Source: Blasia pusilla
Lineage: Eukaryota
Length of the DNA stretch: 64,000 nt
Assembly: GCA_050084515.1 (NCBI GenBank)
Contig: CM114271.1
Span: forward strand, 41,664,001-41,728,000
Reading direction: 5' to 3'
Shown: piece by piece, positions 50,804 to 61,455 of the stretch
How positions within the stretch are numbered: position 1 is the stretch's first letter
Layout of the letters: the number at the start of each line of letters is the position of its first letter
The notes under the pieces: generated by a model
Told to the model about the DNA's origin: nothing
What the model saw: only the letters and a program-made list of their open reading frames with translations
Database searches by the model: none
Position numbers and translations under genes: made by a program

Positions 50804-51429
50804 TTTTTTTTCAACGTACAAAAATGGACATTATCTAAATAGATCCGTCCTTGAACCTTTCGGATTGGGTACTTGAGGGTACTTCTAAAGTTGGACATTT
50901 TGGCCTTTGAACAAGTTAAACTGATGGTTGAGAATACTCTCATGGTTTCAAACGAAACGTATTATCTACTTTTATGGCATTCAAACTGTAGCGTTTGTTA
51001 TCATTTCGCTTGGAAGCCCTTACCTTTAACCCCGGGAAAAAAAACACGAAAGAAATGAAATGGGCAAGGAGAATAGAAAGTCCACTTCTCCATGGTGTAC
51101 CTTCCTTCTCTTCTATCTCCGTGACTACCTAGACAGATGTCTTATGACACATGCATACCATTAAGTGAGATCCTTTACCGATATGCCTTAGTGAAGGGGC
51201 AAAGGTTAGATCATCGAGACTCCAGCTTAAGGTAGGACAACCAATATTTGAAGATAAGACTTAGTCAAAAGGTTTGACTCCCGCACGATTCCAACATGAG
51301 GGAGCGTTTGTGTCATTAGTGTATGTAGCCAATAAAAAATCTCTGAATATTCTCACGTAGTTTGAGCTAACTTGATTCAACCAACAACCAAGAATCACAA
51401 CCAAGGAAAAGGAAGAAAAAGGAACTATG

Positions 51430-54400
51430 ATGGTTTTTGGGACTTTTTCCTTTTTCTTCCTTTTTCCCAATACGATCTTTCTCTGTATCTCTCGGTGGTT
51501 GGTCGAATCCAAATTAGCCAAACCACTTTTCGTATGTCTTTTCTTGTCTTTGGAGACTTGCCTACCTTTACTTCTATGTCATCAGAGATGGAGTTGGATT
51601 CTTCATCTACTCGCTTATCTGGTTTTACACGCCCTCCTAGAGCCGTAACCTCTCCCCCTGGTTCACCTCCTCATCGTCGATCTCGCCATTTTCCTCCAGA
51701 TGCTAATACACCCATTACACTTGCTACATTTCTTCCGGATTCTCCTCTTCTCCCTTCTTCGTCTTGTCTTATTGAGCCTAATCCTGATCCATTATTACCG
51801 AATCCTTCTTCTTTGCCATCCCCACATATCTCATCTATGCCCTTGCTTCCAACTCCCATCTATTCTACCCGAATCTCCCCTCTTCCTCCTCCTCCTTCCC
51901 CAACCTATTTACCCCCTCATCGTCAGCCATCACCACCTCTTGCACATCCCACCTCCTCTCCTTGTAACCCTTCTACTTCTCCATTTGTACCAAAGGTTCG
52001 TTGCATACCTTGTGGTAAGGACTTTGCTCCTAATGGGATCAAAAGACATCAGCGGTATTTTCGATCCATGCATGGGCCTTCAATCCCTAACCCGATACCA
52101 ACTCCTACTGCACTCCCCACAACAACTACTTGGACCTGGTTAAGCCAAATTGATCTCCTTCGCTCTTTCCATCCAGGTCTTCCTCGTCCTAGACTCTACA
52201 CTCGCATTCCTATTGCTCTTCGCCCCATCAGCCAACAAGCTTTGCTATTCCCATTAGAAAGGTTAGCGCGTGACCCCACAAATATAAATGCTTGGTATCT
52301 CCTATTACTCTTCCCAGAATAGGTTTTAGTCCTCCCTCCAAGGGGGTGCAACGGGTCATTGTGAAACCTCCACACGTATTCAACGCTTTATGTCAGGGGA
52401 TTGGGAGAATCTCAGAATGAGCATGTACTTCGAGCTGAGGCCTTAGCTGCGGCTCATCCCACTCAACATGCCAATCATGGGAGGCCTTCAATACAACAAT
52501 GCCTTCGACGAAGTCTACTATTGGGGCAGGTTGGTGAGTTTTTACGTGCAGCTTGAGCATTGGGTCCTCTTTCTCAGGCGGTTCCAAGTGCGGAAACAGT
52601 GGCTCTCTTAGAAGCTCTTCATCCTCCTTCAACTGGCGATGCTCCATCTTTTGTGGAAGACTATACAACATACCTTGACTTGGAGCTTGACTTGGAGGTT
52701 TTCACAAGGGCTTTTCTGCATACTCCTCGCTTATCAGCAAGCGGGCTATCAAGGATGGTTTTTGAGCATCTCCGCAATTGCTTTATCCCAGCAGATTCAG
52801 AAGTGGCTTTGTCTCTCTATATAAGGTGTGTGCACATATGGCGACATGTCGTCTCCCATTCTCTATCTCTAGGCTCTTAGGGGCTTGTCGTTTGTTGGCT
52901 ATGGATAAGCCTCCTTCAGGTGTGCGCCCTTTGGCTATTGGAGAGGTTTTATACCGCTTGGTCAGTCGATCCCTATGCTTGCAATTTTTTCCTCACTTTA
53001 CTGCCCACTTACTTGCCCACTCCTGGAGGTTGTGAGGCTGTGGTGCATGGGATTCGCTCCACTATTGATATTCATCCAGATTGGGTAGCAATTCAAGTCG
53101 ATGTGGCTAATGCATTCAATTCAATTTCTCGTGCGGCCATCTTTGAGGAATTACGTTGTGCAGGAGGACAACTCGCGAGCCTCATTCCATTTGTTTGCTC
53201 CTTCTATGCCTATGATACGCCCATTATCTATTCCCATCATGCTACTTTTGGAGAATATAGTATTCTACAATCGGCTTGTGGCACACGTCAAGGTGATCCC
53301 ATGGGGGGCCCACTCTTTGCCATTGCCCATTTTCGTGCCCTTCGAGCATTAGCGCAAGCATTTCCATCTTGTCTTTTCCTTTCTATTGCTGATGACACTC
53401 ACATTTTAGGTCCTCCTTCTGAAGTGGTTCCTGCTTATACCCATTTTGTGGAGCAACTCTCTTTCTTAAACCTTAAAGTCCAACCTAGTAAATGTGGAGT
53501 ATGGTCTCCTTCATGCCTTCCTTCAACATTCACCCCACCTACTCCTGATTTTCCCATTTACATTGAAGGGGTTAGAGTTCTTGGGGTCCCAATTGGCTTC
53601 ATCGACTATGTCTCAAAGTTCTTGGATGAGGCCCTTTTGAAAGACGTGGAATGGCTTCATTTATTACCTCATCTTGGGGATCCCCAAGTGGCTTATGGGA
53701 TTCTCTCCCAATGTTTTCTTCGACGTCCTTCCTACCTTCTTCGCACTTGTCCTCCCACTTCAAGCTTCTTACATCGGTTGGCCTCTTTTGATGCTTCTAT
53801 CTTGGCAACTTTTGGTCAACTTCTTGGCCCGAATACCTTTGAGGGAGAGGATGGTGTCTTTGCTTCACTACAAGCTATCTTGCCTATTTCTTTTGGAGGG
53901 GTAGGACTATCCTCCTGATCCATCTGCTGCCCCTTGCCTTTTTGGGGAGTTGGGCGTTGGTAGCACCGATTATGGCTTCAAGGTTTCTCCAAGGAGATAT
54001 ACCTATCTTGATGGATCATATCACCCATGTCGAGGAGGAGGACTTGTTATTTCAACAACAACTAAGATCTGCACGAGCTCTTCTTCCTCTTGCGACACAA
54101 GAAATTCTACCCCCTTTCAGTCAACTAATTACAGAAGGGCTTGATCGACTTCAAGAGCATATCTCCGAGAATCTGCATCAAATCAACTTTTCCAGCATTC
54201 TCTCCGAGGCATCCTCCGACGCTAATCGAGCTCGTCTACGTTCATGTGGGGGTATCGGAGCGGGGGCGTGGCTTACTGCAAATCTTCTTATTCTTCCATT
54301 TCGTCTTCCTCGAAGTATATTCTCGACAACTTTGCGGTAACGTCTTGGACTTCCCCATCCTTCTCTCTTAGGTGTGCCGAATTGTGTATGCAGGGATCCC

Positions 54401-55170
54401 ATTGATGCCAAGGGTATCCATATTCTCCGATGTGCACATGGTGGAGAACGAACGGCCATACATGATGTCATTAGAGGCGGTAGCATCGGTGGCTCGTCGG
54501 CGGGATATACAGTTGGGCAAGAGCAACTCCATGTCCTACCTTCAACCACACAAGAAACCTCTTGTCGGAGAGTGGATCTTGTTATGTCTCGAGGTGGATT
54601 CCGGCCACTAGGTGATGTGGTGGTTGCTGATCCAACACATTCTGACTTGGTGTGTAGAGCCGCACATACCAAAGGTTTGGCGGCCGAAGCTACAGCAAGA
54701 ATCAAGGAGTTAAGTTATGCTGTGAGACATGCGACTGACGGATTTATTCCTTTTGCAGTGGAAGTATTCGGTCATTTACATGTGTCTTTTGATACTTTCC
54801 TGAAAACATGTGCTCACCACTCCCTCGAGAATCATCACCTTGCCCCTTCCCGTAGTCCTTCTCTCTTGGTTGTTACTACTTATTTTAGGCAATCCATCTT
54901 AGTGGCCTTACAACGTGCACAAGCCTTGGCATTAATACGTCGTGCGGAGGTGGTGGGAGGTCGCTTGCCTCGTCGTCCATTCACGTTAGACCAACCACTC
55001 GTGTTCTTGTCAGATTGGTTTCAGGAAATCAATCGTGTTGCTCGTTGAGCCGGTGTTTACATGGGCTTGTTGCCATTTTCTTTTTGCATTCTTTTATGCA
55101 TTTTTTTACTCCTCTTTTGAGTTGTTATTACCTTTCTTTGTCCTCTTTTGATGTTTATTTTATAATAAAG
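51430..55170 (+). mobile_element. Near full-length CRE-like (RLE-type) non-LTR retrotransposon; single ORF ~51534-55048 broken by stops and frameshifts
   Basis: C2H2-like finger CIPCGKDFAPNGIKRHQRY; RT motifs VRPLAIGEVLYRL, DVANAFNSISR, GTRQGDPMG, IADDTH, VLGVPIG; CCHC knuckle CVCRDPIDAKGIHILRC; RLE RRVDL..DVVVADP..K..Y..FIPFAVEVFG; T-rich 3' UTR ending ...ATAATAAA. Ends are approximate. Confidence 0.88.
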
Positions 55171-55845
55171 TGGATTCATAATAAATTAGCACCGACCGAA
55201 GCCCATAGTTAAGACACGGCCTTGCATTTAAGGGCACGGTAGGCTAGGATCTCGAACCAGGTGGGTCGGTGACAGCCACGTCCGGTTATGTCCGTTCGGT
55301 AAAGAAGGTAGCGAGAGTGTGTTGGGTGGATACCTGGGTCCGTACTCCGTGGACGGCGAGTCGGAGTTGAGGAGGGACCAAGGCTCGGATAGTACCGGCA
55401 TCCTTTGTAAGGGCTGCGGCAATCGAGATTTTCCGATGGTTGCAACTCACGACACGGGGACGAAACCGAAGAGGAATTAGGTATCACCGGTAGGGAGCTG
55501 CTTCAAGTCATAAACGCCGGCCAGCTTGAGGAAACCGGTTGGACTTTCGCAGTAGTGTAACCGGGACTTGTTGAATTATTCAAGCATTTTCCGACCGGGG
55601 GAAGGAGGTTCCGGGCCGCGACATGTGTCAAGAGGGTAGTGGATAAAGGGGCGAGTGTGCAAGGTTCATCCAGCCGTCCCTTCAAGGGTGCGGATGATCG
55701 GGTCTCATTTGCACTCTTGTAGCTTGTCGTTGTCGCTCTTTGTTGAAGTTTTGGGAGCCTTTCATTGGTTCTGTAAACCCTAGAAACCGTCCGAGCCTAA
55801 ACGCTTTACAAAGGGTTTCAAAGTAGTGAACTCTCAAAGTCCCTT

Positions 55846-58094
55846 ATGGAGGATATTTCGGCCAACAATGCATCTAGGGGTAAGAGACAAAAATCCCTGA
55901 CTGATATGGGGTTTATGAAGAGGACTGTCAGTGAACCAGCAATAGAAAGATAGATTCTCCTTCAGATCTTGCCTCTTCAAAGATTGAAGAGAACAACAGG
56001 CTTTGGAAAGATTCTTGGTATCAAGCTTTTGAATGGATTCAATTTGAGCCTCACACGGGGAGGGTATTTTGTAAAGTGTGCAATGACTCAAGAGGGAAAT
56101 CTGTATTTGCTACATCTGGAGCCATCAATGTGAAGATTTCTGCCTTCACAGACCATGGTAAATCCAAGGAACATAAAAAATTGGCTTGGGCTCAGTATAG
56201 TGGTAGAAAAACTCTACAGAAAGCTATTGCAAGCACCAATAGAAACTGTGATTTAGCGGTGATTAATCTTTTTCGAGGAGCATACTTCATGGCTAAGTAT
56301 AATGTTGCATTTTCCTCATTCCCTGGTCTCTGTACATTACTCAAATCTGGATCTATGATGCTCACAAAATCGATGTATGAGGATGACAAGACATGTGCAC
56401 ATATAATAACATGTATTTGTTTGGTAATTCAAAGATTGCTTCTAGCTAGGGTTAGACTTAGTCCCTTTAAGGAATAATGGTAGATGAATCCACTGACATA
56501 TCAGTAACAGGACACCTTGTTGCCTTTGTCACTTACCTTGATGAAGGTCAAGTGTGCACCTCCTTCTTAGGATTGATCAAGGTTGAGAACAAGGATGCTG
56601 AGTCCATTTCAGATTGTTTAGTATCCTTACTTAGGGAATGGGAATTGGATTTTGAGAAGATGATTGGTTTTGGGTCTGATGGGGCCAACACTATGGTAGG
56701 TACTAGGAATGGGGTAAGTGCTCGTTTGAAGAGGAATGTTAATCCTTACATGACAAGCGTCCATTGTGTGGCACACCGGACAAACTTAGCTGCTCTTGGT
56801 GCAGCAAAGAGCCCAGGGTGCAAGGAACTTAGTGATGAGGTGGATAACATTTTGAATTTTGTTGCATTTTATTTCAAGAAGAGTTCTAAGAGGAAGTATG
56901 GTCTCTCTTCTCTACAAGAGGAGCTAAACGATTCTAGGAAAATCATGAAACGTTATCAGAAGGTCAGATGGCTTAGCAGGTGGCAAGCCGTTACCTCTTT
57001 ATATGATAGTTTAGAATCGGTCATGGTCTACTTCTCTACTGTGAATCCGAGGGAAGATGATGGGGTAGCTTCACATCTTCGAAAGAGGTTAAAATCCTTC
57101 AAAATGATTTGCATTTTATACTTTCTGGTTGACATACTTCATTCTATGGCAATGTTGAGCAAGTTATTCCTGATGAATTTTGTTGATATATCTAGCATTG
57201 CTTCTATTTTTCAGACTGAGATAGCACATGTTAGAATGAATTATGTACATGAAAGTGTAGATATGAATGCCTATCTCATTTCTCAATCTAGTGGTTTTCA
57301 TCTCCTTCCGAACTATGGTCCTAGTGATGGATATCTGCAGCGCTTGCAATCAGAGATAAGGGGTTCTTTCTTTCATTCAATCCAAATGGATAGGGATGTG
57401 ACATGAAAGGATTTAGAAGAAACTGTTTTTTTCCAAGGGAATTTTGTTGAGGCCATATGTGTAGCTTTGCAAGAAAGGTTTGAAGACAATAACATCATTG
57501 GAGGTTTTAAGATCCTCAATCCATCCCAAATGCCTTCTACCATATCTAGTTTAAGAGATTGGGGTGTGAGAGACTTGGAAATGTTGAGCTCTTTCTATGG
57601 ACAGGAAAAAACCTTGCATGGCAGGGTGAAAAAGCCTCTTCTAGATGGTGCAGCCCTCAAGAATGAATTATTGACCTTCAAGATTTAGGCCATGACAATG
57701 GAAGGAGAAGTCCTTCAAGGACTTATGGTGTATGGTAAGTGGTAGTCCGAGCCTGAAGGCTAAGTATGCTAATCTTTGTATTTTAGGTGATATAGCTAGA
57801 GTCCAATGTGTATCAATAGCATCATGGGAAAGAGCTTTTAGCATTCAGAATGTCATTAAGAATAGGTTAAGAAATAGCTTAACCTCTTATCACTTGGGAG
57901 CTTTGCTGAGGGTTAATATGGAGGGTCCAAATGAGAATTTTGATGTGGATAAGGTCCTCATTTCTACTATGGACACATGGAAACAGTCAAAGGAATACAA
58001 ATTTGTATATGCTAATCCAGAGTTGTACATTGTTCCTCCCGTTGTACTTGAAGCTGCTGAGGAAGGTGAGCTTAACCCTGACCTTTCATCCTAG
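55846..58094 (+). pseudogene. Intronless hAT-superfamily transposase (ZNF862-like: TTF finger + DDE + dimerisation domain), decayed
   Basis: WIQF...VFCKVC...DHGKSKEH finger, VDESTD, FGSDGANTMVG, VHCVAHRTNL, VRWLSR, LQERF, SIASWERAFS..IKNRLRNSL. Frameshifts/stops at ~56475, 57404 and 57686. Confidence 0.9.
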
Positions 58095-58215
58095 TTTTTC
58101 TATGACTTCATTTCATTTTGCAAATGCTTTTACTAGTTATTTATTTTCTGTAGTAAAACCCCTCCTACAAAGAAAGTTCATTTTATGAATACTCCTTGTA
58201 GGAAGGGTTCTTAGC

Positions 58216-58269
58216 ACCTCTGACCCCCAACTGGTAGGGGGAATTCTGGTTCAACTCCAGCCAGAGGTA
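58216..58269 (+). ncRNA. Putative tRNA-like structure lacking anticodon arm, copy 1
   Basis: ACCTCTG-A-CCCCC-AACTGGTA-GGGGG-AATT-CTGG-TTCAACT-CCAG-C-CAGAGGT-A: acceptor-like stem, D-like arm with TGG loop, and T arm with a B-box match GGTTCAACTCC. Expression unknown. Confidence 0.45.
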
Positions 58270-58309
58270 ATGAAGAGGTGAGTTGAGAAGGCTAAGAAGG
58301 GTTCTTAGC

Positions 58310-58363
58310 ACCTCCGGCCCCCAATTGGGAGGGGGAATTCTGGTTCAACTCCAGCCAGAGGTA
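58310..58363 (+). ncRNA. Putative tRNA-like structure lacking anticodon arm, copy 2
   Basis: ACCTCCGG-CCCCC-AATTGGGA-GGGGG-AATT-CTGG-TTCAACT-CCAG-CCAGAGGT-A; 94-bp tandem period with copy 1. Confidence 0.45.
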
Positions 58364-60948
58364 ACAAAATGAGGAGGTGAAGGCTAGAAGGACTTTGCTT
58401 ATAACCAGAACTAAACTGAAAGATAGAAAATGTGACAACTAAAAACTGGCATGCCAACTCCAAGCCCATTAAAAAGCTGGTGATTCAAATTATATGCAAG
58501 AAATAACCTGAGAAGGAAAAAAAATCTTGGGCAGAAACCTGATAAGGTAAAAAGTCTGACATATTTCAGAAAACCTGAATGTTTCAAATAGTCCCGGTAA
58601 AAAACGGATCTACTAAAAAATAGTGTCCGAGCACCGGGAGGGACTGAGTGACGAGAAAGTCCGTTTAGGGAGGCACGGGGTGGAAAATTAATCAATCCGA
58701 ACGGACGGTTGATCTGACAGAAGCCGGCCGGCGTCCAGTAAATGAGCGAACGGAACGGTTTAGGATTCCCATGGGAATGCCCTAATGTGTAGAACTTCCC
58801 GATCTCGGCAGTGAGTGGGTTGTTTATTGCTTTCGGAATAGTGCAGCGGACTGCCACAATACTAGCTGAGAAATACAAACATGAGGCAGAAGAACAAATG
58901 AAAGTAGTAAAAAATGACGATCGCCGAGCGGACTCAACAACGACGAACACCAACGTGTCGAGTGAGCGATCACTGAGAGCAAGCGGATTGGAGCGGGCGA
59001 GTGCGAAGACCTGACAAAGGAGACAGCCCGCATGACTCCGAGAGATAGTTGCAAAAAGTGAGAGCGCGCCAGAGGAGAAAGCAGCGAGATGATAACACAC
59101 AGTCGGAAGCAACAAAGAAATCAGAAACCTGTGAGGCACGGCAGGAAAGAACAGAGAAGAACGAGAACCAGAACGAAGAGCACGAACAAACGGACGAACA
59201 AATAGTTGCTCCTGCGAGAAGAGAGAGAGAGAGAGAGAGTAAGAGCGCGAAGGACGGCAGCGCGACCCAGATTCCTCGAGATTGGAGAGACGGCGTGAGC
59301 GCGCAAGAGTGCGAAGGGCAGAGAGACCGAATGCGCGGGAGTCACATGGGCTAGAGAAAGCGCGCGGCTTAGAGCAAAATCCGTCCACTCCATCTGACAT
59401 CCGTGACGTCAAGTTTCCAAGTAGACGTGGTGGTAAACCTGACAACAAACACGTACTTAAGACTTTCTTTATGGACATGATTATTTCCGTAATCAAAATG
59501 AAGTCAGCACTCGTCAAGAAAATCACATTTAGAGTTTTGGAAAACTTACATTACCTTTCTTTAGAATGGAGAGGTAAATCAACATCTCAATTTTTTTAGA
59601 AAAATTGTTAGATATGTTCAACATTTGATGTTAAGAAATTTTTATATCATTTCTAATGATGATATGAATAAGATATTTTTTTTGACATTATATCATTTGG
59701 AAATTCTATAAAATCATCTCCAAAGTGAGCTTGCTAAGATGCACAACCCTCTCCCACCTCCAATCCGTAAAAGTTTGTTGTATACACATGTTCAATTCCA
59801 AATTTTGAACTCTCACATGCGACCATAAAGATGATTCTTCAGTGTAGCTTGAATAATTTTTGGATGGTCTCCATGATGAACTACAAGCAAGATTTGGCAA
59901 AAATCCCCACCAAATATCATTAATTTGCAACCAATCAAAACAATCTTCGAGTCTTCCAATTCCTCTTCCATGATATTTTGGAAGGAGAAAATTACAAACT
60001 CAATGTATGGGAATAAGCGAAGCCCTTTGAATTACATATGATAAGCGGAGCCCTTTGAATTACATATGTAGCTTCGCTATTAATTGGTAATCGCTACTTA
60101 AATATGTTAATATTTTTGGCGAGATATCTCTTTACATCACAAGAGTTACAAAGTCATGAATGGAGTAGAGACTTACTTGCAAGTAAAGTTTTTCATCTAT
60201 ATTGATTGAAATCTTGAAGTGTGAATGGGTAGTGCATCCTCCATCAATAGCAAAGCAACTATCCCCGATGAAGCATCCAAAATCTTCTAGACTTGCAAGA
60301 AGAAGATTGTATAAGAACTTAAGAAGGTTTTCCCAATTTCATCAAGTCTGTTGATAAAGAAAATTTTGGAACTAGGTTTAGTAATTCCAGAAATGATGAT
60401 AAGAAGCTTATCGTCTATAGCATTCCAAATATATTTCTTTCCATCATTCAATTTATTATCTCCTAACCTAGGTCATTAATATAATGAATCTTGATTATAT
60501 AGGAGTTTTTTTGCTTCCAAATGCGAATGGGAAGATGGAGCATAGAAATCAGATTGGGGTATATCTAGGAAATCATATGCTGATTTCCTTGATTTTCTAA
60601 ATGATGGTGGACTTTCAATAGTATAATATTAATCATGTCACGTCTATTAGGATAAATCGATGAGATCTAGTAGAGCGCCTTGGAGATACTAGAGGACAAC
60701 CTCATGAGGTCGAGGATGACCTGTTGGAGGCATGGATAACTTGAGAGAGCAAGTTTCCCCATCGTTTCGGCTCATTTGGAGCCATATTGAGGAACTTACT
60801 ATTTCGGGTAAGTTACCATTTTTGGTGTAATTGACTTTCCACTCTGAGACGTGTCCCTTGATCCGCTACAACCAGTCAAGATCCAAAGAGCTTACCTGCG
60901 AGCATAGATTACCCTGGAGAGAGCTTGGGAGAGGGAAGGGGATATACC

Positions 60949-61053
<105 letters not shown>

Positions 61054-61410: not shown

Positions 61411-61455
<45 letters not shown>
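61411..61455. repeat. (AG)n microsatellite, ~22 units
   Basis: Uninterrupted AG run. Confidence 0.95.

What the first reader, a model, noticed from the sequence alone, without database searches (positions are those of the whole stretch)
58202..58370. Two tandem tRNA mimics without an anticodon arm downstream of the hAT transposase
Seen: about 120 nt after the transposase stop, a 94-bp tandem duplication carries a 54-nt fold in each unit. The consensus is ACCTCTGG/CCAGAGGT (8-bp acceptor-like stem) + CCCCC-AAYTGGKA-GGGGG (D-like arm with GG) + AATT + CTGG-TTCAACT-CCAG (T arm, canonical TTCRA loop) + discriminator A. The 8+4 = 12-bp coaxial stack equals the tRNA 7+5 stack, and no anticodon arm is present. 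Established: RNase P and RNase Z recognise the acceptor/T stack and elbow, and tRNA mimics such as mascRNA define non-canonical 3' ends of Pol II transcripts; GGTTCRANTCC is also a TFIIIC B-box. Inference: this DNA transposon may use tRNA mimicry to process or stabilise its transposase mRNA 3' end, or TFIIIC binding as a boundary against silencing.
Basis: partly seen in the sequence, partly recalled or inferred. Interest (0 to 1): 0.8.

Follow-up and report, generated by a model that had tools for sequence, protein, structure and literature searches.

The report
Anticodon-less tRNA-shaped repeats in a transposon
A plant jumping gene of the hAT type carries, just after its transposase gene, two tandem copies of a small tRNA-shaped sequence that lacks only the anticodon arm; this shape should be cut by the plant's tRNA-processing enzymes, but no RNA evidence for that could be obtained.

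Summary
Two 54-nt folds (58216-58269, 58310-58363) sit in a 94-bp tandem duplication, 121 nt after the stop codon of a broken hAT transposase. Rfam's tRNA model aligns unit 2 end to end at 18.2 bits (cut-off 29), with all anticodon-arm positions absent. D-loop A14, G18, G19 and A21 and the T-loop TTCAA are kept.

It is a family feature, not a private deletion. Genomic reads show a multi-copy element. Most copies carry letters that make both 8-bp acceptor stems perfect, and no insertion appears at the missing arm. Depth shows no extra copies, so it is not an abundant SINE.

Chance rate is about 1 per 4 Mb for the loose shape and 1 per 70 Mb for the perfect one. That is unlikely in one window but not across a large genome.

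Published kinetics show that plant protein-only RNase P cleaves anticodon-less pre-tRNA like wild type. A processing role is therefore plausible.

It remains untested. RNA reads over the site were about one deep and probably antisense. There is no covariation. An alternative fold competes and wins in this decayed copy.

Verdict: a real, unusual tRNA-shaped module whose function is open.

The parts
58216..58269 (+). tRNA-shaped unit 1. Acceptor 5' strand 58216-58223, D-like arm 58224-58241 (loop AACTGGTA), linker AATT 58242-58245, T arm 58246-58260 (loop TTCAACT), acceptor 3' strand 58261-58268, discriminator A 58269.
   Evidence: The window copy has A at 58223 where 26 of 28 genomic reads have G.
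58310..58363 (+). tRNA-shaped unit 2, same layout with D loop AATTGGGA.
   Evidence: Rfam tRNA model, 18.2 bits, positions 1-71 with the anticodon arm absent. Also. The window copy has C at 58315 where 11 of 12 reads have T.
58199..58392 (+). Tandem duplication with a 94-bp period, units about 58199-58292 and 58293-58392.
   Evidence: (pairwise alignment).
58157..58209 (+). Imperfect 25-bp hairpin that ends 6 nt before unit 1.
   Evidence: I1, 80% complementary. It is present in the minimum-energy folds of the longer contexts.
58291..58309 (+). 8-bp hairpin GCTAAGAA-GGG-TTCTTAGC that abuts the first base of unit 2. It spans the duplication junction.
   Evidence: sequence. It forms in the 251-nt and 546-nt folds.
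58274..58283 (+). Post-fold segment AGAGGTG, with its counterpart GGAGGTG at 58373-58379. It can pair with the 5' acceptor strand to give a competing fold. 58276-58283 reads AG|GTGAGT, which resembles a 5' splice site.
   Evidence: 58274 is G in 13 of 14 reads.
55935..58094 (+). hAT transposase gene, broken in this copy. Frame changes lie near 56460-56470 and 57696, and there is an in-frame stop at 57404-57406.
   Evidence: Pfam zf-C17orf113, DUF4371 and Dimer_Tnp_hAT. Colinear tblastn to relatives of 650-780 aa. 21 of 30 reads differ at 57404, and 7 of 16 have two more letters after 57696.
58576..58632 (+). 3' subterminal part of the element. An inverted repeat pairs it with 55560-55582. Family read depth ends near 58632.
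   Evidence: I2, 23 nt, 83%; depth falls from about 19 to under 1 after 58630, and 12 reads run on unlike after 58632.

Best explanation
What is shown: a natural tRNA lacking its anticodon domain is built into the 3' untranslated part of a multi-copy hAT transposon family of a land plant, and it is duplicated in tandem. It keeps an acceptor/T stack of 12 bp, a D arm with A14, G18, G19 and A21, and a T loop TTCAA. It lacks only the anticodon arm. It is a family trait.

What is inferred: when the element is transcribed in the sense of the transposase and the transcript runs past 58216, the module folds as a tRNA elbow. The plant's protein-only RNase P would cut at 58215|58216 and 58309|58310. 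RNase Z would cut after the discriminators at 58269 and 58363.

The predicted result is a transposase transcript ending about 120 nt after the stop codon, just after a long hairpin, plus released RNAs of about 54 nt. Whether this helps the element (a defined, hairpin-ended 3' end) or merely happens is not known. The module's origin, a captured tRNA or convergence, is also unknown.
For: 1. End-to-end alignment to the Rfam tRNA model, with exactly the anticodon arm missing.
2. The invariant tRNA nucleotides are present in both units, and the two units differ in the loop only at D-loop positions 16 and 20. That these two positions are variable ones in tRNAs is recalled.
3. It is a family trait. 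Genomic read depth is about 25-30 over the element against about 0-1 just outside it. Majority letters at 58223 (26 of 28) and 58315 (11 of 12) make both 8-bp stems perfect. No insertion is listed at the site of the missing arm.
4. With the majority letters, the cloverleaf-like fold equals or beats its competitor. Energies are -32.1 vs -31.2 for unit 1 and -29.0 vs -29.2 kcal/mol for unit 2. Acceptor-pair probabilities are 0.67 and 0.83 in a 546-nt context.
5. The closest named transposase relatives are from a liverwort (54%) and a fern (40%), so the host is a land plant. That land plants use PRORP-type RNase P is established knowledge.
6. Arabidopsis PRORP3 cleaves pre-tRNA without the anticodon domain like wild type (kreact 1.48 vs 1.72 per min, KM 1.7 vs 1.5 nM). 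Loss of the D domain hurts cleavage (PMC4797305, passages).
7. PRORP1 behaves the same way and depends on G18, C56 and R57 (PMC3562450, abstract and passages). All three are present here.
8. Plant mitochondrial t-elements carrying GGTTCRANYCC mark mRNA 3' ends through RNase P (PMC1920247, abstract and passages).
9. The module has the same strand as the transposase.
Against: 1. There is no RNA evidence. In three RNA runs (6-12% of each read), depth over 57960-58325 was 0.8-2.4 in one run and about 0 in the other two. No begin or end pile-ups were found. The few reads had first mates on the + strand, which in the usual stranded design means antisense RNA.
2. No covariation: 2 sequences, 0 compensatory pairs.
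3. In context, the window's own sequence prefers another fold. The 5' acceptor strand pairs with the post-fold RGAGGTG and the T hairpin extends to 8 bp. Energies are -31.6 vs -28.4 and -31.8 vs -24.3 kcal/mol, and acceptor-pair probability is about 0 for unit 1.
4. All four private changes of this copy in 58216-58380 favour that alternative or weaken the cloverleaf.
5. Position 8 is G or A, not U. In the 8-bp form no linker is left before the D arm.
6. The score lies below the tRNA gathering score. Chance shapes occur at about 1 per 4 Mb in the loose form and 1 per 70 Mb in the strict form.
7. A plant-type poly(A) site could lie in the T-rich stretch upstream, which would keep the module out of the mature mRNA (inference).
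8. Only 40 of 191 variant rows were shown, so variation inside the fold across copies is not fully known.
Confidence: 0.35

Rival explanations
1. Inert passenger of tRNA descent. The ancestor of this hAT family picked up a tRNA gene or tRNA-related fragment, or arose next to one. The fragment lost its anticodon hairpin and was later duplicated. It is carried along without any effect on the element's RNA, for example because the mRNA ends upstream of it or because the RNA takes the competing fold.
For: The module aligns to the tRNA model over its whole length apart from the deleted arm. Its decay in the window copy matches the rate in the coding part: 4 majority-differing positions in 165 nt against 16 in 745 nt. 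The two units show no more conservation in the fold than in the 17 nt before it. The competing fold is as stable or more stable. No sense RNA was seen.
Against: A clean loss of exactly the one arm that RNase P does not need would be a coincidence, given that every other arm and the invariant loop letters are retained. No donor tRNA was found. The 21-mer spanning the T loop and acceptor strand hit no tRNA in 185,579 prokaryote genomes or in the metagenome set (3 hits, none tRNA-like). Eukaryote and organelle tRNA sets could not be searched.
Confidence: 0.3
2. Chance resemblance. A G+C-rich three-hairpin fold with a TTCAA loop arose by chance in a transposon's untranslated region and was then copied by a local duplication and by transposition.
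For: The score is below the gathering cut-off (18.2 vs 29 bits). The loose descriptor occurs once per 4.1 Mb and the strict one once per about 70 Mb of simulated sequence. A large genome, or a scan of very many windows, will therefore contain some. Fold z-scores are modest, from -0.9 to -2.8. The two units are not independent.
Against: Per window the strict form is expected in about 0.1% of cases. Features not in the descriptor also fit: A21, R15, G53-C61, Y60 and discriminator A. Their status as conserved positions is recalled tRNA knowledge.
Confidence: 0.2
3. DNA-level role. The two B-box matches (GGTTCAACTCC) bind TFIIIC and act as a boundary or insulator, or the units act as Pol III promoters.
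For: Both units match GGTTCRANNCC exactly, and these are the only two matches in the window.
Against: The motif alone is expected 0.66 times per window by chance. The A-box region fits the recalled consensus TRGCNNAGTGG poorly. No run of four T follows within about 270 nt on the + strand, so there is no Pol III terminator. The stems are perfect in the family majority, and a protein-binding DNA motif would not need that.
Confidence: 0.07
4. The competing RNA fold, or the splice-donor-like motif after each unit, is the relevant feature. In that fold a leader-trailer helix encloses two hairpins. The cloverleaf would then be a by-product of the repeated AGAGGT.
For: The alternative fold is the minimum-energy structure in every context longer than the unit for the window copy. 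Two private changes (58274 and 58315) turn G.U into Watson-Crick pairs in that helix. AG|GTGAGT lies at 58276-58283.
Against: This copy is a dead pseudogene, so its private changes are unlikely to be selected. With majority letters the alternative loses its advantage. No spliced reads were seen (joints: none), though depth was about 1.
Confidence: 0.08

Closest known systems
Laboratory pre-tRNA variants without the anticodon domain, used as PRORP substrates (PMC4797305, PMC3562450)
   Same: Same architecture: acceptor stem, D domain and T domain, with the anticodon domain removed. G18, G19, C56 and R57 are present. Those substrates are cleaved like wild type by plant PRORP1 and PRORP3.
   Different: Those are engineered from real tRNAs. 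This one is natural, sits inside a Pol II-type transposase transcript unit, and lacks U8. Its acceptor/T split is 8+4 bp in the family majority (7+5 with one mismatch is the other way to draw it).
Plant mitochondrial t-elements (PMC1920247)
   Same: Both are non-canonical tRNA-like folds carrying GGTTCRANYCC next to coding regions in plants. The t-elements are used by RNase P and RNase Z to make mRNA 3' and 5' ends.
   Different: t-elements are in mitochondrial genomes. This module is in a nuclear-type context, with a LINE fragment and a hAT transposon around it. Processing here has not been shown.
mascRNA and menRNA at the 3' ends of MALAT1 and NEAT1
   Same: Each is a tRNA-like fold at the end of a Pol II transcript, about 55-60 nt long. 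RNase P cleavage upstream of it defines the 3' end (abstract starts seen in the listing).
   Different: The Rfam search at E up to 10 lists no match to a mascRNA or any MALAT1-type family. The U-rich ENE and A-rich tract that protect MALAT1 are not seen directly upstream, where hairpins lie instead. mascRNA is a vertebrate RNA. That it keeps a small anticodon-like arm is recalled.
tRNA-derived SINE heads
   Same: Both are tRNA-related sequences with a B box inside a repeat.
   Different: Read depth does not rise over the module relative to its flanks (28 vs 24-29). There is no SINE body or tail and no terminator, and the module lies inside a DNA transposon.
ENE triple-helix elements in plant transposon RNAs (Tycowski, Shu and Steitz 2016, recalled; Evade ENE, PMC12501189, abstract start seen)
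   Same: Each is a structured RNA element near the 3' end of a plant transposable-element transcript, proposed to control its stability.
   Different: The structure differs (U-rich internal loop clamping the poly(A) tail) and so does the mechanism. No such motif was recognised here.

Membership tests
tRNA (Rfam RF00005) | Score at or above the family's gathering score, or detection by a tRNA finder. | tested here: not met
   18.2 bits against 29 for unit 2, and no row for unit 1. ARAGORN found 0 genes in the window. No family reached gathering level.
tRNA (Rfam RF00005) | Anticodon arm. | tested here: not met
   All 18 model positions of the arm are absent in the alignment. G26 is followed directly by AATT and the T arm.
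tRNA (Rfam RF00005) | Acceptor stem, D arm with G18 and G19, T arm with a TTCRA loop, and a discriminator. | tested here: met
   32 of 34 pair cells are standard in the window. Both stems are perfect with the family-majority letters.
tRNA-derived SINE | Dispersed on its own in many copies. | tested here: not met
   Genomic read depth over 58204-58264 (28.1) equals that of neighbouring transposon bins (24-28.9). No other copy is in the window.
tRNA-derived SINE | Pol III A box and B box, and a terminator. | tested here: inconclusive
   The B box matches exactly. The A box fits poorly by eye against a recalled consensus. No TTTT follows within about 270 nt.
MALAT1/NEAT1-type 3' module (ENE + A-rich tract + mascRNA-like tRNA mimic) | U-rich ENE hairpin and genomically encoded A-rich tract directly upstream of the RNase P site. 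| tested here: not met
   Upstream of 58216 and 58310 lie GGAAGGGTTCTTAGC and hairpins, not an A-rich tract. The E<=10 Rfam listing shows no mascRNA or MALAT1-related family.
MALAT1/NEAT1-type 3' module (ENE + A-rich tract + mascRNA-like tRNA mimic) | RNase P cleavage at the 5' end of the mimic in vivo. | tested here: inconclusive
   RNA depth was about 1 or 0 over the site, and no end pile-ups were listed.
Plant mitochondrial t-element | GGTTCRANYCC motif within a non-canonical tRNA-like fold. | tested here: met
   GGTTCAACTCC at 58248 and 58342. Fold. Motif definition from PMC1920247.
Plant mitochondrial t-element | Location in a mitochondrial genome, with ends that coincide with mapped mRNA termini. 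| tested here: not met
   The context is a hAT transposon next to a LINE reverse-transcriptase fragment, with multi-copy read depth. Termini were not mapped.
hAT transposon | hAT transposase (dimerisation domain and DUF4371-type core). | tested here: met
   Pfam hits are present, two of them below their curated cut-offs in this broken copy. Alignments to relatives carrying PF14291 and PF05699 are colinear at 45-58% identity.
hAT transposon | Short terminal inverted repeats flanked by an 8-bp target duplication. | tested here: inconclusive
   Subterminal inverted similarity is found at 55560-55582/58576-58598 and 55514-55527/58721-58734. No clean termini or duplication were found by eye. The family read boundary lies near 58632.

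The most novel reading that the evidence does not exclude
A DNA transposon family of a land plant uses a built-in tRNA mimic to make a 3' end for its transposase mRNA without the poly(A) machinery. The mimic is reduced to exactly what protein-only RNase P needs, sits in tandem, and is preceded by hairpins. The resulting 3' end would be PRORP-defined and hairpin-capped. The released, CCA-tailed RNAs of about 54 nt might have roles of their own. This would be a nuclear, transposon-borne counterpart of MALAT1-mascRNA and of mitochondrial t-elements.
Probability: 0.15. Interest if true: 0.8.

Novelty: new variant of a known kind. Interest (0 to 1): 0.5.

Why it matters
tRNA-like processing signals on mRNAs or long RNAs are known from plant mitochondria (t-elements) and from two vertebrate lncRNAs. 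According to the abstract starts listed, MALAT1 and NEAT1 are the only lncRNAs known to use the tRNA machinery for maturation. My four searches aimed at the topic listed no paper whose title or abstract start describes such a signal in a DNA transposon; none of the listed papers was opened. No paper on plant nuclear Pol II transcripts turned up in those searches either, though none was aimed at that.

If this module is cut in vivo, it would show that a selfish element can recruit the host's tRNA enzymes to shape its own mRNA. It would also give a compact natural part, about 54 nt, for defining RNA ends in plants.

If it is inert, it is still a neat natural copy of the laboratory substrate lacking the anticodon domain. 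A simple in vitro assay can tell the two apart.

Tried and rejected
- Whole-genome search: no genome is held for this window.
- Sister copies by DNA pattern. The 21-mer of T loop plus acceptor strand gave 1 metagenome and 2 prokaryote hits. All lack the rest of the fold. L001 shares 24 identical letters only, and there is no tRNA-like hit there at E<=10. These are treated as chance.
- Viral contigs: 0 hits for a 24-mer, and no transposase relative among 21 pattern hits.
- Other copies in the window: none.
- Earlier notes of this scan: nothing for this genome, this sequence or these words. The 8 listed tRNA/transposon notes concern bacteria.
- Sequencing runs: no RNA holder was listed by the index. 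Three raw-read RNA runs of the same species label were laid instead. They gave too little depth to show anything about processing. The RNA pile at 58448-58630 comes from another locus, because the reads run on unlike at 58558 and 58610.
- DNA contigs of transposase relatives (P0001-P0006, from 2.4-3.5-kb contigs) could not be fetched. Their 3' UTRs remain unseen.
- Covariation: only the two tandem units could be aligned, giving 0 compensatory pairs. One search shows only 40 of 191 variant rows, so no family-wide pair count was possible.
- Paper search for the 13-nt motif returned 6 unrelated papers, judged from titles and abstract starts.
- Considered and rejected: a viral-type 3' TLS (no pseudoknot, and the module is internal); a phloem-mobility tRNA-like signal (no test was possible; the closest named transposase relative is a liverwort, and that liverworts lack phloem is recalled).
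- Supplementary files of papers were not consulted.
Full report
**1. What is there**

The sequence at 58199-58392 is a tandem duplication with a 94-bp period. There are two 88-nt copies, 86% identical, and blastn gives 85.3% over 102 nt. Tandem Repeats Finder did not report it.

Each unit contains a 54-nt stretch, 58216-58269 and 58310-58363. Folded alone, each forms three helices:
- an acceptor-like stem;
- a 5-bp all-G/C D-like arm with loop AACTGGTA or AATTGGGA;
- a 4-bp T arm with loop TTCAACT, which abuts the 3' strand of the acceptor stem and is followed by a discriminator A.

In tRNA numbering the module keeps A14, A15, G18, G19, A21, G26, G53, T54, T55, C56, A57, A58 and C61. That these are conserved positions is recalled tRNA knowledge.

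Rfam's tRNA model aligns unit 2 from model position 1 to 71 with the 18 anticodon-arm positions absent. The score is 18.2 bits, below the gathering score of 29, and E is 0.7 for 801 nt against 4227 families. Unit 1 gave no tRNA row. ARAGORN finds nothing, and no Rfam family reaches its cut-off anywhere in the window.

In the window itself each acceptor stem has one mismatch: A.C at 58223 and C.A at 58315. So 32 of 34 pair cells are standard, and there is no compensatory change between the two units.

**2. Context**

The four open frames from 55935 to 58094 carry zf-C17orf113, DUF4371 and hAT dimerisation matches. They align colinearly, without introns, to transposase-like proteins of 650-780 aa. 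The closest named relatives are from a liverwort (54% identity) and a fern (40%), so the host is most likely a land plant.

This copy is dead. Frame changes lie near 56460-56470 and 57696, and there is an in-frame stop at 57404-57406. The relatives' C-termini align up to 58031-58070. The stop at 58092-58094 is therefore the real end of the gene, and unit 1 begins 121 nt later.

A 25-bp imperfect hairpin (58157-58209) ends 6 nt before unit 1. An 8-bp hairpin (58291-58309) abuts unit 2. A LINE reverse-transcriptase fragment lies upstream at 52881-53918.

**3. Family evidence from reads**

No genome is held. I therefore laid one genomic and three RNA raw-read runs of the same species label on 57350-59150, at 80% likeness.

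Genomic reads:
- About 1% of the genomic run was read. It gave a depth of 25-30 over 57350-58264 and 11-19 over 58265-58630. Depth was about 0-0.6 over 58631-58813.
- The element is therefore present in many copies (tens or more), and the common part ends near 58632. There, 12 reads run on into unlike sequence.
- Depth over unit 1 (28.1) equals that of its neighbours (24-28.9). The module is therefore not part of a separate abundant repeat.
- No insertion is listed between 57697 and 58385, so the other copies lack the anticodon arm too.
- Most reads differ from the window at four places in or next to the folds: 58223 A>G (26 of 28), 58274 A>G (13 of 14), 58315 C>T (11 of 12) and 58365 C>A (10 of 11).
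- The first and third of these restore perfect 8-bp stems ACCTCTGG/CCAGAGGT in both units.
- Caveat: only 40 of 191 variant rows were printed, so minority variation in the folds is unknown.
- The halved depth after 58265 may mean that many copies lack the second unit or are more diverged there. No joint was listed that would settle this.

RNA reads:
- Over the transposase 3' end and unit 1, one run had depth 0.8-2.4 and the other two about 0.
- No pile-up of ends and no joints were found.
- The few reads had first mates on the + strand, like all reads of these evidently stranded libraries in this part. In the common library design that means RNA of the - strand.
- The RNA pile at 58448-58630 carries other letters and runs on unlike at 58558 and 58610, so it comes from another locus.
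- The processing hypothesis is therefore neither supported nor contradicted by RNA.

**4. Chance**

A descriptor was scanned over the window and over simulated sequence. It required:
- a 12-bp acceptor/T stack with at most one mismatch;
- a TTCRA loop;
- a D hairpin of 4-5 bp with loop A...GG;
- a total length of 44-65 nt.

It hit only the two units in the window. It hit 34 loci in 2183 second-order Markov windows, or 1 per 4.1 Mb. The perfect form with a 5-bp D stem hit 2 loci in 139.7 Mb.

This agrees with the covariance-model E-value. Rescaled to the tRNA family alone, that E-value gives about 0.013 per 64-kb window (my arithmetic).

So the shape is unlikely in a given window, but a large genome should hold some by chance. 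The B box alone means nothing, at 0.66 per window.

**5. Folding in context**

For the window's own letters, every context longer than the unit prefers another fold. In it the 5' acceptor strand (CACCTCY) pairs with a repeat of the acceptor 3' strand just after the fold (RGAGGTG at 58274-58280 and 58373-58379). The T hairpin grows to 8 bp by using the real acceptor 3' strand.

| Letters used | Unit | Competing fold (kcal/mol) | tRNA-like fold (kcal/mol) |
|---|---|---|---|
| Window | 1 | -31.6 | -28.4 |
| Window | 2 | -31.8 | -24.3 |
| Family majority | 1 | -31.2 | -32.1 |
| Family majority | 2 | -29.2 | -29.0 |

The majority letters were put in at eight non-coding positions inside a script, and only energies and pair probabilities were printed. 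With them, the acceptor pairs have probabilities of 0.67 and 0.83 in a 546-nt context. The z-scores of the isolated folds become -2.8 and -2.1.

The ancestral element could therefore form the cloverleaf-like fold. This decayed copy probably would not. All four private changes of this copy push towards the competitor. Because the copy is a pseudogene, I read that as coincidence rather than selection, but it is listed as a rival.

**6. Mechanism**

Land plants use protein-only RNase P in the nucleus (established knowledge).

- For Arabidopsis PRORP3, deleting the anticodon domain of a pre-tRNA leaves kinetics unchanged (kreact 1.48 vs 1.72 per min, KM 1.7 vs 1.5 nM). Deleting the D domain raises KM more than 50-fold. 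The authors conclude that only the anticodon domain is entirely dispensable (PMC4797305, passages read).
- For PRORP1, the substrate without the anticodon domain is cleaved, and the one lacking both D and anticodon domains is not. G18, C56 and R57 matter, and a 3' CCA is an anti-determinant (PMC3562450, abstract and passages).
- In plant mitochondria, t-elements carrying GGTTCRANYCC sit at mRNA 3' ends made by RNase P (PMC1920247, abstract and passages).

The module here keeps exactly the required parts, lacks exactly the dispensable one, and is followed by ATG or ACA rather than CCA.

My best reading, at confidence 0.35, is that sense transcripts reaching it are cut at 58215|58216 and 58309|58310 and after the discriminators.

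Two further steps are inference only: that this is useful to the element, and that the upstream hairpins protect the new 3' end. The MALAT1-type protector (U-rich ENE plus A-rich tract) is not present.

**7. Rivals**

- An inert passenger of tRNA descent (0.30).
- A chance fold (0.20).
- The competing fold or the splice-donor-like AG|GTGAGT at 58276-58283 as the real feature (0.08).
- TFIIIC or Pol III at the B boxes (0.07).

The SINE reading is rejected by the flat read depth. A private deletion is rejected by the family reads.

**8. Novelty**

My four searches aimed at the topic listed no paper whose title or abstract start describes a tRNA mimic in a DNA transposon. I did not open the listed papers, and the library lacks most subscription papers. 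ENE elements in plant transposon RNAs are known (Tycowski et al. 2016, recalled; PMC12501189, abstract start only), but they are a different structure.

I file this as a new variant of a known kind, namely tRNA-like processing signals. Its function is unproven.

Noticed in passing
window 58448-58630: All three RNA runs pile up here, with depth up to 13-17 at 58570-58630. The reads carry other letters (58587 A>C, 58606 G>T) and run on into unlike sequence at 58558 and 58610 with a consistent consensus. An expressed transcript elsewhere in the genome therefore contains a fragment of about 50 nt related to this element's 3' subterminal region.
   Followed up: partly
window 58632-58813: Just past the family read boundary lies a stretch rich in ACGG/CCGT motifs. 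It ends in the near-palindrome TAGGATTCCCATGGGAATGCCCTA (58761-58784) and has inverted similarity to 55514-55527. Almost no genomic reads match it at 80% or more. It may be the terminus of a rarer subfamily or a rearranged end. No 8-bp target duplication was found.
   Followed up: partly
window 58276-58283 and 58066-58153: AG|GTGAGT, a near-perfect 5' splice-site motif, follows unit 1, and a weaker AG|GTGAAG follows unit 2. A GTGAG...TGTAG intron-like stretch overlaps the last codons of the transposase. No spliced reads were seen, but depth was about 1.
   Followed up: no
window 51366-55048: A non-LTR retrotransposon fragment (RVT_1 match at 52881-53918, with long open frames around it) lies directly upstream of the hAT element.
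   Followed up: no
window 58814-59150: Another repeated sequence, with genomic read depth of about 5-6 and majority letters differing at 58926, 58933 and 58959. A 379-codon open frame on the minus strand (58411-59550) has no Pfam match and looks low-complexity.
   Followed up: no
window 60952-61053, 61411-61455, 60013-60068: There are long GA/AG microsatellites of 51 and 22 repeats, and a 28-bp unit repeated twice.
   Followed up: no
L001 563-586 (minus strand): A metagenome contig with very few open frames shares 24 identical letters with the T-loop/acceptor/trailer of unit 2. It shares nothing upstream, and there is no tRNA-like fold. It is probably chance.
   Followed up: yes
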